In this document: positions 2,898-27,947 of the stretch, one piece after another
Layout: each line of letters opens with the position of its first letter
How positions within the stretch are numbered: position 1 is the stretch's first letter
Source: an uncultured SAR86 cluster bacterium
GTDB taxonomy: Bacteria; Pseudomonadota; Gammaproteobacteria; Magnimaribacterales; D2472
Assembly: GCA_902628925.1 (NCBI GenBank)
Contig: CACOPA010000001.1
Span: 253,517-317,516 of the forward strand
Direction: 5' to 3'
DNA: 64,000 bases
Notes under the pieces: generated by a model
The model's database searches: none
Told to the model about the DNA's origin: nothing
Seen by the model: the letters and a program-made list of their open reading frames with translations, nothing else
Position numbers and translations under genes: made by a program

Positions 2898-3260
2898 ATG
2901 TTTGGATTCATTTTAGGCTGCTTGTACTTACTAAGCGCCTTAACTTTTCTTTGGCTTAATAATAGTAAATTTGATCTCGTTGGATTCTTTTTTAATAAAG
3001 CGAATCATAAATTCTATGTTGGTTATGAACTTAGTTTCTTGGTCCTTTGTATGCTTGCATTGCTGGAATCAATGAGTTGGGTTTTCTTTATTTTGCTAGC
3101 AATCCATTTCATGGGTTTTTATATATTGGCTTTCAATACTGAAAAATTTTATTCAATGAGAAATGAAATTGACGCACTAGGTCAAAACTCAATGATAAAT
3201 TTTTCTGTAATCTTTTATCTGCTCGGAGGAGTTTTTTCTTTATTCACTGTTTTGATTTAA
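2898..3260 (+). CDS. small hydrophobic membrane protein, unknown function
   Basis: 120-aa ORF with 3-4 predicted TM helices. It starts 3 nt after the MBL gene, and its 3' end overlaps the acs 3' end by 21 nt. Confidence 0.4.
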
Positions 3261-5878: not shown

Positions 5879-7144
5879 TTATCCCAACTCTCCAGATAAG
5901 CCAAATTTTTTAGAGTCTGATGAGTTCTCTTGATGCCTTTTAATCATCTCAAGTTTTGTTTGTCGGTTGCTCGATTGAAATTTTGTCCACCAATCACCAA
6001 TTTCGCTCCCAGAATTAGAGGCCTCAATTCTTAATAATATCAAATCATATGCAGCTCTAAATCTTGGATGTTGAAGTACTTTAAAGGGTTGATTTTTGAT
6101 CCTACTTTGAAGCCTCAACTGCAATGACCAAATATCTTTTATGTAAGTATAAAATCTCCTTGGTACAGCAGTTAAGATTTGCTGGTCTCTTAAAATTTTG
6201 TCCATGTTAGGAAAAAATCTTCTTGTGCTAATCGAATCTTCAACAGTTGCTAGTTCAATCAACTTTGGCCATAAAATAGCCGCTAAAAGAAATCCAGGAG
6301 TTACTGATTTACCCTCATGAACTCTGTTATCAGTATTAATAAGCGCTAACATCTGCAATCGATAACCATAGCTATTAGACTGCCCTACATAACTCACCAA
6401 ATGTTTTAACAAGTCGAAAGTTTCCAGTTTTTCAAAGTTATGCTGGGCTTTGCCGTGCATAAATATTTTATTAAATTCATCAAACCTTCTGGCATTGGAT
6501 ATGCTGCTCAAAAGATATCCTTTTTCATAAATTGCATCTTTTATTTGTTTATCAATTTTAAAGTTTAGCTTCGTTGCAAATCTTACAGCTCTTAAACTTC
6601 TGACAGGATCTTCTTCGAAGCGCAGCATGGGGTCGCCGATAGAAACAATTTTACGCTTAAAAGAATCGTTCACCCCTTGATGTCTATCGAATAATTTTTT
6701 TTGAATAGGGTCAAAGTAAAGAGAATTAATTGTAAAGTCTCTTCTTTCACAATCCTCCTCAATTGTCCCCCAGACGTTATCCCTTAGAATTTTACCTAGC
6801 TGGTCCTTAACAATTTTTTCTTGATTCGATTTTGCTCCGGATGCTCTGAAAGTAGAAACTTCTATAACTTGGCTGCCCTTATAAACATGAACTAACTTAA
6901 ATCTTTTTCCAATAATTCGTGAGGCTTTAAATATCTTTCTAATTTGCTCTGGTGTTGCATTGGTCGCTACATCAAAATCTTTAGCTGGAATATCTATTAA
7001 CTGATCTCTGATGCATCCCCCAACAAGGTAGGCATCATGACCATTTTTTTGTAATTGCTTGATGATCTCCTCAGCAAATTTATTAAATTTATTCTGGAGA
7101 AGTTTTTTTGGTGGACTTATAAATGAATTATTTGGGTTACTCAA
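5879..7144 (-). CDS. pcnB: poly(A) polymerase I
   Basis: 421 aa with the nucleotidyltransferase core LVGGCIRDQLIDIPAKDFDVAT and RDFTINSLYFD. It lies downstream of dksA, as in E. coli and Pseudomonas. Confidence 0.9.
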   Translation of the reverse strand: MSNPNNSFISPPKKLLQNKFNKFAEEIIKQLQKNGHDAYLVGGCIRDQLIDIPAKDFDVATNATPEQIRKIFKASRIIGKRFKLVHVYKGSQVIEVSTFRASGAKSNQEKIVKDQLGKILRDNVWGTIEEDCERRDFTINSLYFDPIQKKLFDRHQGVNDSFKRKIVSIGDPMLRFEEDPVRSLRAVRFATKLNFKIDKQIKDAIYEKGYLLSSISNARRFDEFNKIFMHGKAQHNFEKLETFDLLKHLVSYVGQSNSYGYRLQMLALINTDNRVHEGKSVTPGFLLAAILWPKLIELATVEDSISTRRFFPNMDKILRDQQILTAVPRRFYTYIKDIWSLQLRLQSRIKNQPFKVLQHPRFRAAYDLILLRIEASNSGSEIGDWWTKFQSSNRQTKLEMIKRHQENSSDSKKFGLSGELG

Positions 7145-7164
7145 ATTAAAATTTTGGAGATTGA

Positions 7165-7791
7165 TTATCCACCTAGTTGTTTTTCTTTTATCTCATCTAG
7201 AGTCTTGCAATCAATGCAATGCGTGGCAGTGGGTCTTGCTTCTAGTCTTTTTAAGCCAATCTCAATTCCACATGAATAACAGTATCCATAGTCATCTTGT
7301 TTAATTTGCTCTAAAGAGCTCACAATCTTTTTGATAAGTTTTCTTTCCCTGTCCCTAGTTCTTAATTCAAAGGCAAACTCTTCTTCTTGTGAAGCACGAT
7401 CAACAGGATCTGCAAAAGTTTCACCTTTATTTTTAAGGTGATCAAAAGTTTTTTGCATTTCTTCTTTAAGGTGCTCTCTCCAATTAAGTAAAACTTTATT
7501 AAAGTGACGCTTCATAGCAGCACTCATATATTTCTCATTCTTTTTGGGCTTGTAGGACGAGATTTGGGGTTCTTTCTTCTTAGCGACTCTTTTCTTTTTT
7601 GCAACAGATAATTTTGCTACTTTCTTTTTCAGAGTCTTAGACTTAGCTGCAGTATTCTTTTTAGTTATTTTCTTTGGCGCTGCAGTTTTTTTCTTGGGAG
7701 CAGCTTTCACTTTTTTATTGACTGTCTTGGTTGATGCTTTTTTATTTGAGGTTTTCTTTGCTGTTGTTTTTTTACTTTTTTTAGTTGGCAT
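7165..7791 (-). CDS. dksA: RNA polymerase-binding transcription factor DksA with lysine-rich N-terminal extension
   Basis: The C-terminal ~130 aa align by eye with E. coli DksA: [29 protein letters not shown] plus a CxxC-N17-CxxC zinc finger (CYSCG...CIDC). The track start at 7821 is TTG and the first ATG is at 7791. A ~73-aa K/A/T-rich segment precedes the core. Confidence 0.85.
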
Positions 7792-7872
7792 TTTAGTTTT
7801 TAAGTTATTGAAATTAATCAAATTATTTAAGGGCGAAGAAAATAGCAGAAATGAACCTAATAAGCTAGTTTT

Positions 7873-8871
7873 TTATAATTTTTTTAGAACCTCATGATAG
7901 CCAGATTCTGTTAATCTTGGACCAAAAGTCTCAACAATTTTAGAAGCCCCATAATTAGCAAATTTTCCACATTCATTCAGAGAATTGCCCTGAGAGAGCG
8001 CATATAAAAAACAACCTGCAAACATATCGCCGGCTCCATTTGTATCTACCGCATTAATGCTTTCAGCTTTTACTTGAATTAATTCATCTTTATTAACAAT
8101 TGAGCATCCCTTCGAGCCTCTTGTAACAATACTAATAAAATCTTTTTTTGTAAGATCATCAAGTGCCGAATCAGTAGATTCAGTTGATGTAAAAGACATT
8201 GCTTCTTCATCGTTACAAAAAATGTAATCAACTCCAAAACTTTCTAGTTCAGTAAATCTGTCTCTAAATCCCATTACAATGCCAGGATCTGAAAGTGATA
8301 GAGCAATTTTTACATTTTTTTCAGACGCTCTTTTTAAGAGCTTAAGGGTTACAGAATAGTTTTCATCACTCGTGACCATATAGCCTTCAACGTAAAGAAT
8401 GTCTGTATCAAGCATTGCTACAAAATCAATATCATCCTCTCGCATAAGCGCACTTACATTGAGGGCTGTCGACATAGTTCTTTTTGCATCTGCTGTAACC
8501 AAGATTAAGCATTTACCTGTTGGGACTTCATCAGCATCCCGCATTTTTAAATTATGGTTAACACCTATATTTTTAAGGTTTGCAAGGTAGCTATGACCAT
8601 CTTCATCATCAGCAACCACGCAAGTATGAAAACATTTAGCACCAAAATGAGTTGCAGCTACCAATGTATTTGTTGCTGAGCCTCCACAATCAGAAACGGA
8701 TTCTGCATTCTCTTTTTTTAACTTATCAATAATTGGAGCATGCTCCTCAGCACTTGATAGATTCATTTGATCAATTTCTAGGCCAACTTCTGCGATGAAT
8801 TCATGTGATACTTTAAATTGAGTATCAACCAATGCATTTCCAATCGCAGTTATGTCATATTTCATCTTCAT
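7873..8871 (-). CDS. PfkB-family carbohydrate/nucleoside kinase (adenosine-kinase-like)
   Basis: 332 aa with the PfkB signature DTNGAGDMFAG near the C-terminus and an N-terminal GNALVD motif. Confidence 0.8.
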   Translation of the reverse strand: MKMKYDITAIGNALVDTQFKVSHEFIAEVGLEIDQMNLSSAEEHAPIIDKLKKENAESVSDCGGSATNTLVAATHFGAKCFHTCVVADDEDGHSYLANLKNIGVNHNLKMRDADEVPTGKCLILVTADAKRTMSTALNVSALMREDDIDFVAMLDTDILYVEGYMVTSDENYSVTLKLLKRASEKNVKIALSLSDPGIVMGFRDRFTELESFGVDYIFCNDEEAMSFTSTESTDSALDDLTKKDFISIVTRGSKGCSIVNKDELIQVKAESINAVDTNGAGDMFAGCFLYALSQGNSLNECGKFANYGASKIVETFGPRLTESGYHEVLKKL

Positions 8872-19760: not shown

Positions 19761-19816
<56 letters not shown>

Positions 19817-19838
<22 letters not shown>

Positions 19839-27871: not shown

Positions 27872-27947
27872 GGGGCTATAGCTCAGCTGGGAGAGCACCT
27901 GCTTTGCAAGCAGGGGGTCCGCGGTTCGATCCCGCGTAGCTCCACCA
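27872..27947 (+). tRNA. tRNA-Ala (anticodon UGC)
   Basis: ggggcta acceptor with the G3:U70 identity pair context, anticodon loop cuUGCaa, T-arm ccgcggttcgatcccgcg, encoded CCA. Confidence 0.95.

What the first reader, a model, noticed from the sequence alone, without database searches (positions are those of the whole stretch)
7573..7791. DksA carries a histone-H1-like lysine/alanine-rich N-terminal tail
Seen: the DksA core ([12 protein letters not shown]..., CxxC-N17-CxxC) begins about residue 88 of the track ORF. It is preceded, in the same frame and without stops, by about 73 residues from the first ATG (7791). By my count about 31 of these are lysine, arranged in KK(T/A)xAKK-type repeats ([45 protein letters not shown]...).

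Established: E. coli and Pseudomonas DksA are about 150 aa with no such tail. Lysine/alanine-rich tails of this kind (eukaryotic H1 C-terminal tail, Pseudomonas AlgP, chlamydial Hc1) bind DNA non-specifically.

Inference: an RNAP secondary-channel factor tethered to DNA or the nucleoid would be an undescribed variation on stringent-response control. Alternatively, the tail compensates for lost nucleoid proteins in a streamlined genome.
Basis: partly seen in the sequence, partly recalled or inferred. Interest (0 to 1): 0.55.

Follow-up and report, generated by a model that had tools for sequence, protein, structure and literature searches.

The report
DksA with a lysine-rich disordered tail
This marine SAR86 bacterium's stringent-response factor DksA really does carry a 73-residue, strongly positive, disordered N-terminal tail that is conserved in its relatives, and a similar tail on the Streptomyces protein DdbA has already been shown to bind DNA.

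Summary
The ORF at window 7165-7791 (-) encodes a 208-aa protein. Residues 1-73 hold 31 Lys, 1 Arg and no Asp or Glu. Residues 77-208 align without gaps to E. coli DksA residues 20-151. The DxxDxA tip, the four zinc cysteines and all six ppGpp site-2 residues are conserved.

Translation cannot start at the internal Met89, because homology to E. coli DksA runs 12 residues upstream of it. ATG 7791 is the start. Relatives begin M-P/A/V-K-K, and one close relative has a TGA just upstream.

The tail is predicted to be disordered. All seven SAR86-type loci examined have one. It varies in length in 5-residue steps, and it keeps its lysines while the spacer residues drift.

Lysine-rich N-terminal tails of 30-280 aa also occur on DksA in at least six other gammaproteobacterial clades, including genomes of 63-70% GC. 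That argues against an AT-rich artefact and against streamlining as a general cause.

The architecture is not new. Streptomyces DdbA (2013) has an H1-like (S/T)(A/T)AKK-repeat N-terminal domain on a DksA-like domain, and that domain binds and condenses DNA. I found no paper describing the tail on gammaproteobacterial DksA.

Most likely function: a non-specific polyanion (DNA) tether on a canonical DksA. This is inferred, not shown.

The parts
7165..7791 (-). dksA coding sequence, 208 aa plus stop (7165-7167), starting at ATG 7791
   Evidence: Pfam DksA_N and zf-dksA_traR both match. NCBIfam TIGR02420 dksA scores 161 bits against a cut-off of 115.5. E. coli DksA 1TJL matches at E 2e-48. Homologue N-termini agree on the start. 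Close relative L082 has an in-frame TGA upstream of the ATG.
7573..7791 (-). Lysine-rich disordered N-terminal tail, residues 1-73 (31 K, 1 R, 0 D/E; net +32; pI 11.9)
   Evidence: Composition. AlphaFold2 gives pLDDT below 50 and no secondary structure for residues 3-72. Lysine columns are at least 90% conserved in 30 homologues. Lysine spacing has a period of 5 in the family.
7522..7572 (-). Residues 74-90: junction and N-terminal strand of the globular domain. [13 protein letters not shown] aligns to E. coli DksA V20-M32. Contains internal Met89 (7525-7527).
   Evidence: The ungapped alignment to 1TJL starts at residue 77 (= E. coli residue 20). The NCBIfam PRK10778 match starts at profile position 20. 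Y80, K84, E86, K87, Y88 and M89 are invariant in alignment A2.
7297..7521 (-). Coiled-coil domain, residues 91-165, which would insert into the RNAP secondary channel
   Evidence: AlphaFold2 predicts helices 91-122 and 129-165. Pfam DksA_N covers 95-163.
7393..7410 (-). Coiled-coil tip motif D128-P-V-D131-R-A133, equivalent to E. coli D71, D74 and A76
   Evidence: Alignment to 1TJL with a constant offset of 57. D128, D131 and A133 are invariant in A2.
7207..7281 (-). C4 zinc finger C171, C174, C192, C195 (= E. coli C114, C117, C135, C138). ppGpp site-2 residues R148, K151, L152, K155, R186 and K196 lie nearby.
   Evidence: Pfam zf-dksA_traR covers 167-197. Residue mapping comes from the 1TJL alignment. 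The site-2 residue list comes from bioRxiv 10.1101/188680.
7819..7821 (-). Upstream in-frame TTG that opens the mechanical ORF; rejected as the start codon
   Evidence: In close relative L082 a TGA lies in frame between this TTG and the ATG. All homologues start at M-P/A/V-K-K.
5879..7144 (-). pcnB (poly(A) polymerase I), immediately downstream; context that supports orthology with the housekeeping dksA locus
   Evidence: Pfam PolyA_pol, PolyA_pol_RNAbd and PolyA_pol_arg_C all match. The same neighbours appear in L081 and L082.

Best explanation
The gene is the housekeeping dksA of a SAR86-clade gammaproteobacterium. Its C-terminal 132 residues form a canonical DksA: a coiled coil with a DxxDxA tip, a C4 zinc globular domain, a C-terminal helix and a complete ppGpp site-2 residue set. 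It should therefore bind the RNA polymerase secondary channel and act with ppGpp as in E. coli.

The extreme N-terminus leaves the globular domain outside the channel. There the protein carries a 73-residue intrinsically disordered polycation (net +32), built from degenerate xxxKK-type five-residue units. Such tails arise and change length by in-frame tandem duplication and deletion. Selection keeps the lysines and excludes acidic residues, while the spacer residues drift.

The most likely function is non-specific electrostatic binding to DNA. This would keep DksA on the nucleoid or on DNA next to RNA polymerase. It could also add some histone-H1-like charge neutralisation or condensation. This is what was shown for the N-terminal domain of Streptomyces DdbA.

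What is shown here: gene identity, start codon, conservation, predicted disorder, phylogenetic spread and mode of evolution. What is inferred: DNA binding and its effect on transcription control.
For: Identity as DksA:
- Pfam and NCBIfam both match.
- The alignment to E. coli DksA is ungapped, at E 2e-48. D71, D74, A76, the four Cys, and R91, K94, L95, K98, R129 and K139 are all conserved.
- pcnB lies immediately downstream.

Start codon and translation of the tail:
- Homology to E. coli DksA runs upstream of Met89.
- Homologues start MP.KK.
- L082 has a TGA upstream of the ATG.
- The only other in-frame start codon in the tail, by my reading of the sequence, is GTG at V28. Starting there would still leave a 46-residue tail.

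Selection on the tail:
- In an alignment of 30 homologues, 18 of the 20 tail columns that are at least 90% conserved (after M1) are lysines; the other two are P2 and T10.
- Against a 97%-identical relative, the tail has 5 synonymous and 7 non-synonymous changes. None of the 7 replaces a lysine (hypergeometric p about 0.017, calculated by hand from the counts). The core has 5 synonymous and 0 non-synonymous changes.
- The tail contains no acidic residue.

Repeat nature:
- Lysine spacing has a period of 5 in the family (mean z 6.9 at lag 5 and 6.2 at lag 10), and tail lengths step by 5 residues.
- L001 has a 42-nt x 2.5 tandem repeat at 95% identity inside its tail.
- 22 of 30 homologues hit Pfam HC2.

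Disorder: residues 3-72 have pLDDT below 50.

Spread:
- All 7 SAR86-type loci carry a tail, and so do at least 6 other clades.
- 74 of 123 nearest 50%-identity cluster representatives carry a K-rich N-terminal extension of 63-316 aa.
- In those representatives whose match runs to the end of the query core, the DksA match ends at or within a few residues of the C-terminus, so I saw no lysine-rich C-terminal tail.

Functional precedent: the DdbA N-terminal domain, with (S/T)(A/T)AKK pentapeptides, shifts and condenses plasmid DNA, and the DksA-like domain alone does not (PMC3643593).
Against: - No experiment exists on this protein or on any gammaproteobacterial tailed DksA.
- A +32 polycation will bind any polyanion in vitro, so DNA is not singled out over RNA or polyphosphate.
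- The window's own tail is degenerate. Period 5 reaches only z 1.9, there is no Pfam HC2 hit, and there is no DNA tandem repeat.
- The exact sequence evolves fast, and near-identical strains differ by in-frame deletions of 11-48 residues. Tail length is therefore not tightly constrained.
- Most gammaproteobacterial DksA proteins work without a tail.
- I could not test whether the N-terminus of RNAP-bound DksA can reach DNA.
Confidence: 0.6

Rival explanations
1. The tail is a polyphosphate-binding module, like the AlgP C-terminal domain or the lysine-repeat 'KPM' targets. During starvation polyP would bind the tail and would sequester, relocate or modulate DksA. That would link polyP directly to stringent control.
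For: - Lysine-rich stretches bind polyP non-covalently. Positive P. aeruginosa targets had about 9 K in 20 residues (PMC12077175). The window tail reaches 10 K in 20 residues.
- The H1-like tail of AlgP localises to polyP granules (PMC9239181).
- E. coli DksA is genetically linked to polyP accumulation. This rests on the title of Gray 2019, seen in the reference lists returned.
Against: - The reported positive KPM targets had four consecutive lysines. This tail has at most three.
- Nothing is known here about polyP metabolism in this organism, and I did not look for ppk in the window.
- DNA is the more abundant polyanion next to RNA polymerase.
- The only tested homologous architecture, DdbA, was shown to bind DNA.
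Confidence: 0.15
2. The tail is a tolerated low-complexity expansion. It would be produced by replication slippage at a short basic N-terminus, with little or no specific function.
For: - Length varies quickly. Near-identical strains have proteins of 208, 197, 191 and 182 aa.
- Recent tandem duplications are present.
- Halieaceae DksA N-termini form a graded series of 12, 15, 16, 21, 22, 30, 38 and 85 residues, all starting MPKAAKK-like.
- The tail has a much higher non-synonymous rate than the core.
Against: - Every SAR86-type locus examined retains a tail of 51-95 residues.
- Lysines are conserved while spacers drift, and there are no acidic residues.
- The tail has arisen or been retained in at least 7 clades across 31-70% GC.
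- In the representatives whose match runs to the end of the query core, the extension is at the N-terminus only.
- It persists in a streamlined genome, where useless coding sequence is not expected to last (general knowledge about SAR86).
Confidence: 0.1
3. The tail binds RNA (nascent transcript, rRNA or ribosomes) rather than DNA. It would resemble the basic extensions of ribosomal proteins, or Hc2, which binds both DNA and RNA.
For: - Hc2-type pentapeptide-repeat proteins are reported to have both DNA- and RNA-binding activity (as summarised in PMC3783465).
- 22 of 30 homologues hit the HC2 profile.
- DksA's best-known targets are rRNA promoters (general knowledge).
Against: - Nothing in the sequence gives RNA specificity.
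- I did not establish where the RNA exit channel lies relative to the DksA globular domain; from memory it is on a different face of the enzyme from the secondary channel.
- The DdbA precedent is DNA binding.
Confidence: 0.08
4. One reading: the tail replaces nucleoid-associated proteins lost from a streamlined SAR86 genome, so that DksA doubles as the main histone-like protein.
For: - The tail is fixed throughout the SAR86 clade, whose loci have 31-38% GC.
- DdbA contributes to nucleoid condensation in Streptomyces.
Against: - Longer tails occur on DksA in non-streamlined lineages: Alloalcanivorax at 63% GC, a 4.3-Mb Ca. Azotimanducaceae chromosome, Haliea and Halioglobus.
- The nucleoid-protein repertoire of SAR86 was not examined here.
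Confidence: 0.07

Closest known systems
Streptomyces coelicolor DdbA (SCO2075), a 'DksA-like DNA-binding protein' (Aldridge et al. 2013, PMC3643593)
   Same: Both have the same two-part architecture: an N-terminal, highly basic, histone-H1/Hc2-like domain made of lysine-rich pentapeptide repeats ((S/T)(A/T)AKK), followed by a DksA-type coiled coil with two tip aspartates and a C4 zinc finger. Tail length varies among orthologues. The DdbA N-terminal domain binds and condenses DNA, and the DksA-like domain alone does not.
   Different: The phylum differs, and the origin is almost certainly independent. DdbA is one of three actinobacterial DksA-like paralogues. It is only weakly similar to E. 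coli DksA (BLAST 8e-11), lies near ftsZ, and was reported only in streptomycetes. The window protein is the gammaproteobacterial housekeeping DksA (E 2e-48 to E. coli DksA; the aligned cores of other gammaproteobacteria are about 49-61% identical). It has all ppGpp site-2 residues and sits next to pcnB. I could not obtain the DdbA sequence, so there was no direct comparison.
Escherichia coli DksA (PDB 1TJL; RNAP complexes 5VSW, 5W1T, 7KHE, 7KHI)
   Same: Residues 77-208 align without gaps to E. coli residues 20-151. The tip DxxDxA, the four zinc cysteines and the ppGpp site-2 residues R91, K94, L95, K98, R129 and K139 are all conserved.
   Different: E. coli DksA is 151 aa. Its first 19 residues are not lysine-rich, and here they are replaced by a 76-residue segment dominated by the polycationic tail.
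Bacterial histone-H1-like lysine/alanine tails: chlamydial Hc2 (Pfam PF07382), Pseudomonas AlgP and PhaF C-terminal domains, Herbaspirillum HC2 homologue (AAAKK/AAPKK pentamers)
   Same: The composition is similar (K, A, T, P; almost no acidic residues). These tails share intrinsic disorder, five-residue periodicity, repeat-number variation between strains, and binding to polyanions (DNA, polyP, PHA-granule tethering). 22 of 30 SAR86-type DksA homologues hit PF07382.
   Different: Those tails are C-terminal or make up the whole protein, and they are attached to other domains (AlgP N-terminal domain, phasin). AlgP uses KPAA units. The window's own tail does not reach any Pfam HC2 score, and its NCBIfam Hc2 match is E 0.36.
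Actinobacterial topoisomerase I C-terminal lysine repeats
   Same: A lysine-repeat tail is appended to a DNA-transaction enzyme and acts as a non-specific DNA tether that raises processivity (abstract of PMC7398561).
   Different: The enzyme differs, the tail is at the C-terminus, and the lineage is actinobacterial. It is relevant only as a mechanistic analogy.

Membership tests
DksA (RNA polymerase secondary-channel factor, ppGpp cofactor) | DksA_N coiled-coil domain plus DksA/TraR C4 zinc-finger domain; equivalog-level HMM match | tested here: met
   PF21157 matches at 2.4e-28 and PF01258 at 2.9e-10. TIGR02420 scores 161.2 bits against a cut-off of 115.5. PRK10778 scores 177.7 bits, below its cut-off of 289. 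1TJL matches at E 2e-48.
DksA (RNA polymerase secondary-channel factor, ppGpp cofactor) | Coiled-coil tip DxxDxA (E. coli D71, D74, A76) | tested here: met
   D128, D131 and A133 in the ungapped alignment. They are invariant in 30 homologues.
DksA (RNA polymerase secondary-channel factor, ppGpp cofactor) | Four zinc-binding cysteines (E. coli C114, C117, C135, C138) | tested here: met
   C171, C174, C192 and C195.
DksA (RNA polymerase secondary-channel factor, ppGpp cofactor) | ppGpp site-2 residues R91, K94, L95, K98, R129, K139 | tested here: met
   R148, K151, L152, K155, R186 and K196 are all identical. The residue list comes from bioRxiv 10.1101/188680.
DksA (RNA polymerase secondary-channel factor, ppGpp cofactor) | DksA three-dimensional fold | tested here: inconclusive
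   The AlphaFold2 secondary structure fits DksA: two long helices, a zinc ribbon and a C-terminal helix. However, mean pLDDT is only 58.5, and Foldseek against the PDB gave no match below E 1.
DksA (RNA polymerase secondary-channel factor, ppGpp cofactor) | Binds RNAP and, with ppGpp, destabilises rRNA promoter open complexes | not testable with these tools
   This needs in vitro transcription or complementation of an E. coli dksA mutant.
DdbA-type bifunctional protein (H1-like N-terminal domain plus DksA-like domain) | N-terminal lysine-rich pentapeptide-repeat domain directly preceding a DksA-like domain | tested here: met
   The tail covers residues 1-73 and the core follows. Period 5 is strong in the family (z 6.9) and weak in the window protein (z 1.9).
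DdbA-type bifunctional protein (H1-like N-terminal domain plus DksA-like domain) | Orthology with SCO2075 (streptomycete-specific, located near ftsZ) | tested here: not met
   The closest loci are SAR86 gammaproteobacteria. The neighbours are pfkB-family kinase, hemL-like aminotransferase and thiE-like synthase upstream and pcnB downstream. The paper reports orthologues only in streptomycetes. No direct sequence comparison was possible because the DdbA sequence is not held.
DdbA-type bifunctional protein (H1-like N-terminal domain plus DksA-like domain) | N-terminal domain binds and condenses DNA | not testable with these tools
   This needs EMSA or AFM on full-length protein against a deletion of residues 1-73.
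Histone H1-like nucleoprotein Hc2 (Pfam PF07382 / NCBIfam NF038052) | Significant profile match | tested here: not met
   The window protein has no PF07382 hit at E<=1, and NF038052 scores E 0.36, 11 bits against a cut-off of 135. By contrast 22 of 30 close homologues do hit PF07382, with a best E of 5.4e-12. The match is compositional and repeat-based and does not show common descent.
AlgP/PhaF-type H1-like tails | C-terminal KPAA-type repeats attached to an AlgP or phasin N-terminal domain | tested here: not met
   The tail here is N-terminal, uses xxxKK-type units with T, A, V or S spacers, and is attached to DksA.

The most novel reading that the evidence does not exclude
In SAR86 and several other marine Gammaproteobacteria, stringent control may use a DksA that is held on a cellular polyanion by its tail. 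That polyanion could be the nucleoid in fed cells and polyphosphate in starved cells. The availability of DksA to RNA polymerase would then be set by competition among DNA, polyP and RNA as well as by ppGpp. This would be an additional input into stringent control that has not been described for the canonical DksA, and the tails would have evolved convergently with Streptomyces DdbA.
Probability: 0.2. Interest if true: 0.7.

Novelty: new member of a known kind. Interest (0 to 1): 0.4.

Why it matters
DksA is the protein partner of ppGpp in proteobacterial growth-rate and starvation control. SAR86 is among the most abundant uncultured bacterioplankton lineages in the surface ocean (general knowledge).

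If the tail tethers DksA to DNA or polyphosphate, stringent control in these organisms has a spatial or polyanion-dependent component that the E. coli model lacks. The idea that a nucleoid protein can be physically coupled to RNA polymerase regulation has so far rested on one Streptomyces protein. Here it would be extended to the canonical DksA and shown to have evolved repeatedly.

Cultured carriers exist (Alloalcanivorax balearicus and A. xenomutans), which makes this directly testable. If the tail proves functionally neutral, it is still a clear example of lysine-repeat expansion under compositional selection.

Tried and rejected
- Start at internal Met89 (7525-7527): rejected. Residues 77-88 align to E. 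coli DksA 20-31 and are invariant in homologues.
- Start at upstream TTG 7821: rejected. Relative L082 has an in-frame TGA between this TTG and the ATG, and all homologues begin M-P/A/V-K-K.
- AT-rich compositional artefact: rejected. This is the only K-rich stop-free segment in the window. Shuffles are open in frame only 0.7% of the time. Tails also occur on DksA in genomes of 49-70% GC.
- Selection against poly(A) slippage through AAG codons: no signal. AAG is 35% of lysine codons in the tail against 28% in the background, Fisher p 0.32.
- DNA tandem repeats in the window's own tail: none found. They are present in relatives.
- Promoter and terminator scans around the gene: nothing above shuffle expectation.
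- Foldseek of the AlphaFold2 model against the PDB: no meaningful match. The model has low confidence and one third of it is disordered.
- The listing of cluster members for taxon names of ten tailed representatives: no organism names returned.
- Supplementary files of the DdbA paper, to obtain its sequence: not held. There was therefore no direct DdbA comparison.
- Six literature searches for a described gammaproteobacterial tailed DksA found none. The held library is incomplete, so this is absence of evidence only.
Full report
**1. The observation**

The minus-strand ORF ending at 7165 is open from a TTG at 7821. The first ATG is at 7791. From that ATG the product is 208 aa. Residues 1-73 (window 7573-7791) contain 31 Lys, 11 Ala, 10 Thr, 1 Arg and no Asp or Glu. 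The net charge is +32 and the pI is 11.9.

This is more than chance would give:
- Only 0.7% of shuffles of the 219-nt segment lack an in-frame stop.
- Lysine makes up 7.7% of the window's long ORFs but 42% of the tail.
- No other stop-free segment of at least 60 codons, in any of the six frames of the 64-kb window, has 12 or more Lys in 40 residues.

**2. The attached domain is a canonical DksA**

Pfam finds DksA_N (residues 95-163) and the DksA/TraR zinc finger (167-197). NCBIfam TIGR02420 (dksA equivalog) scores 161 bits against a cut-off of 115.5. PRK10778 scores 177.7 bits, which is below its cut-off of 289.

Residues 77-208 align without a single gap to residues 20-151 of E. coli DksA (PDB 1TJL, E 2e-48). 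With the constant offset of 57, the following E. coli residues are all conserved:
- Coiled-coil tip: D71, D74, A76 correspond to D128, D131, A133.
- Zinc cysteines: C114, C117, C135, C138 correspond to C171, C174, C192, C195.
- ppGpp site 2, as listed by Molodtsov et al. (bioRxiv 10.1101/188680): R91, K94, L95, K98, R129, K139 correspond to R148, K151, L152, K155, R186, K196.

The next gene downstream is pcnB. The gene upstream is a PfkB-family kinase. The same order appears in two close relatives. From my own knowledge, dksA lies close to pcnB in E. coli too.

**3. Where translation starts**

That start is excluded. Residues 77-88 ([12 protein letters not shown]) align to E. coli V20-Y31. Y80, K84, E86, K87, Y88 and M89 are invariant in 30 homologues.

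The upstream TTG is also excluded. In a 97%-identical relative (L082), a TGA lies in frame between that TTG and the ATG. In six SAR86-type genomes the first ATG of the stop-free frame gives M-P/A/V-K-K..., and the 120 database homologues begin the same way.

By my reading of the sequence, the only other in-frame start codon inside the tail is a GTG at Val28. Starting there would still leave a 46-residue lysine-rich tail.

**4. Nature of the tail**

AlphaFold2, run with a 30-sequence alignment, gives pLDDT below 50 and no secondary structure for residues 3-72. The core forms helices 91-122 and 129-165, a zinc ribbon and a C-terminal helix.

In the family the lysines recur with a period of five. 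The mean z against shuffles is 6.9 at lag 5 and 6.2 at lag 10. Tail lengths cluster at 71/72, 76/77, 81/82 and 86 residues. The window's own tail is a degenerate version, with z of 1.9. It has no DNA tandem repeat and no Pfam HC2 hit. By contrast 22 of 30 homologues hit Pfam HC2, with a best E of 5.4e-12.

Relatives show recent in-frame duplications. L001 has a 42-nt x 2.5 repeat at 95% identity, and Alloalcanivorax has a 15-nt unit. Near-identical strains differ by in-frame deletions, giving proteins of 208, 197, 191 and 182 aa.

Selection acts on composition rather than on exact sequence:
- After M1, 18 of the 20 tail columns that are at least 90% conserved are lysines; the other two are P2 and T10.
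- Against L082, the tail has 5 synonymous and 7 non-synonymous differences. None of the 7 replaces a lysine (hypergeometric p about 0.017, calculated by hand from the counts).
- Over the same comparison the 135-codon core has 5 synonymous and 0 non-synonymous differences.

**5. Who has it**

The nearest genomic loci are SAR86-cluster MAGs and single-cell genomes. All six of them, at 31-38% GC, carry lysine-rich tails of 51-95 residues, as does the window.

Of the 80 best species-representative loci, 19 have a lysine-rich or lysine/alanine-rich N-terminal extension of at least 30 residues (14-40% Lys). These include:
- Alloalcanivorax balearicus and A. xenomutans (225-229 aa, 62-63% GC);
- a Ca. 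Azotimanducaceae MAG with a 4.3-Mb chromosome (217 aa);
- Haliea (85 aa) and Halioglobus (30-38 aa);
- several unnamed Gammaproteobacteria at up to 70% GC.

On a neighbour-joining tree of the cores, these fall into at least seven separate clades interleaved with untailed DksA. Within Halieaceae the N-terminus forms a graded series of 12, 15, 16, 21, 22, 30, 38 and 85 residues, all starting MPKAAKK-like. This suggests tails grow by expansion of a short basic N-terminal peptide.

In an exhaustive phmmer search with the core against 1.84 billion cluster representatives, 123 of the best 150 hits had the core's N-terminal end matched. Of those 123, 74 carry an N-terminal extension of 63-316 residues with at least 20% Lys (medians: 28% K, 14% A, 3% D+E). 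That 60% is inflated, because fast-evolving tails split sequences into many 50%-identity clusters.

In the representatives whose match runs to the end of the query core, the DksA match ends at or within a few residues of the C-terminus, so I saw no lysine-rich C-terminal tail. This fits the structure. The N-terminus belongs to the globular domain outside the secondary channel. [quoted passage not shown]

**6. What is known**

A full-text search found Aldridge et al. 2013 (PMC3643593). Streptomyces coelicolor DdbA (SCO2075) has a 93-residue N-terminal histone-H1-like domain with five (S/T)(A/T)AKK pentapeptides, fused to a DksA-like domain with the two tip aspartates and the zinc finger. The main findings were:
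- Full-length protein and the N-terminal domain retard and condense plasmid DNA. The DksA-like domain alone does not.
- The null mutant is affected in nucleoid condensation and in supercoiling after osmotic stress.
- Overexpression suppresses a relA phenotype.
- The authors found orthologues only in streptomycetes.

The architecture and a tested function therefore have a precedent, and 'undescribed' is too strong.

Six searches found no paper on a tailed gammaproteobacterial or SAR86 DksA. Public annotations simply call these proteins 'RNA polymerase-binding protein DksA' or 'DnaK suppressor protein'.

The tail belongs to the familiar class of bacterial H1/Hc2-like lysine-alanine repeat tails, which includes AlgP, PhaF and the Herbaspirillum HC2 homologue with AAAKK/AAPKK pentamers. 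These bind DNA and, for AlgP, associate with polyphosphate granules.

**7. Mechanism**

Best-supported reading (confidence 0.6): this is a fully canonical, ppGpp-responsive DksA whose exposed N-terminus carries a disordered polycation. The polycation binds DNA non-specifically, keeps the factor on the nucleoid or on DNA next to RNA polymerase, and adds some H1-like charge neutralisation.

The following are shown: identity, start codon, predicted disorder, conservation and evolutionary mode. DNA binding and any effect on transcription are inferred from charge and from DdbA.

Rival readings:
- Polyphosphate binding (0.15). The tail has 10 Lys in its densest 20-residue stretch but runs of only three. 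Reported polyP-binding targets had about 9 in 20 with four consecutive lysines.
- Tolerated slippage product with no specific role (0.10). This is argued against by fixation across SAR86, lysine-specific conservation and repeated origin.
- RNA binding (0.08).
This is argued against as a general cause by the tails in large, GC-rich genomes.

**8. Verdict**

It is moderately interesting, for four reasons:
- It sits on the canonical DksA.
- It is fixed in a very abundant ocean lineage.
- It has arisen repeatedly.
- It occurs in cultivable bacteria where it can be tested.

**Dead ends**
- AAG-versus-AAA codon bias gave no signal.
- Promoter and terminator scans gave nothing above expectation.
- Foldseek on the low-confidence model gave no match.
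- Cluster look-ups returned no taxon names.
- The DdbA sequence could not be obtained for a direct comparison.

Noticed in passing
L083 (ENA scaffold, 1268 nt), compared with window 6650-7915 (-); proteins P0027 and P0039: Two independent short metagenome contigs encode a DksA whose upstream region, tail and first ~88 residues are about 94% identical in DNA to the window. The rest of dksA then drops abruptly to 50-70% identity, and the downstream pcnB is strongly divergent. The breakpoint lies near the conserved NEKYM codons. This is either real recombination that swaps the tail module between SAR86 lineages, or a recurrent assembly chimera.
   Followed up: partly
Proteins P0004 (197 aa), P0005 (191 aa), P0006 (182 aa, 37 member sequences) and P0007 (160 aa), compared with window 7573-7791: Strains whose DksA is otherwise almost identical (97-99% in alignment A2) carry in-frame deletions of 11, 17, 26 and 48 residues. 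Three lie inside the tail; the P0007 deletion runs on into the core N-terminus. This is population-level length polymorphism, reminiscent of the repeat variation reported for algP.
   Followed up: partly
window 19761-19838 (+) and 27872-27947 (+): tRNA-Ile(GAT) and tRNA-Ala(TGC) usually sit together in the 16S-23S spacer. Here they lie 8 kb apart among protein-coding ORFs, and Rfam detects no rRNA anywhere in the window.
   Followed up: no
window 7694-7897 (+): A 67-aa Phe/Leu-rich ORF lies antisense to the tail. It is the mirror image of the AAA/AAG-rich coding strand and is almost certainly a shadow ORF rather than a gene.
   Followed up: no
window 7145-7164: Only about 20 nt separate the dksA stop from the pcnB start (TTG 7144). 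From memory, E. coli has a gluQ gene between the two, so dksA and pcnB may be co-transcribed here. No terminator-like site was found.
   Followed up: no
L014 (NVUL01000073.1, titled 'SAR86 cluster bacterium NORP90'): This locus has 51% GC and an untailed DksA that clusters with Pseudohongiella and OM182 sequences, not with the SAR86 clade. The record's SAR86 label looks unreliable.
   Followed up: no
L052, L053, L058, L023, L033, L042, L039, L060 (Halieaceae dksA loci, N-terminus just upstream of position 3001): There is a graded series of DksA N-termini of 12 to 85 residues, all beginning MPKAAKK-like. It looks like snapshots of a lysine/alanine tail growing from a short basic peptide.
   Followed up: partly
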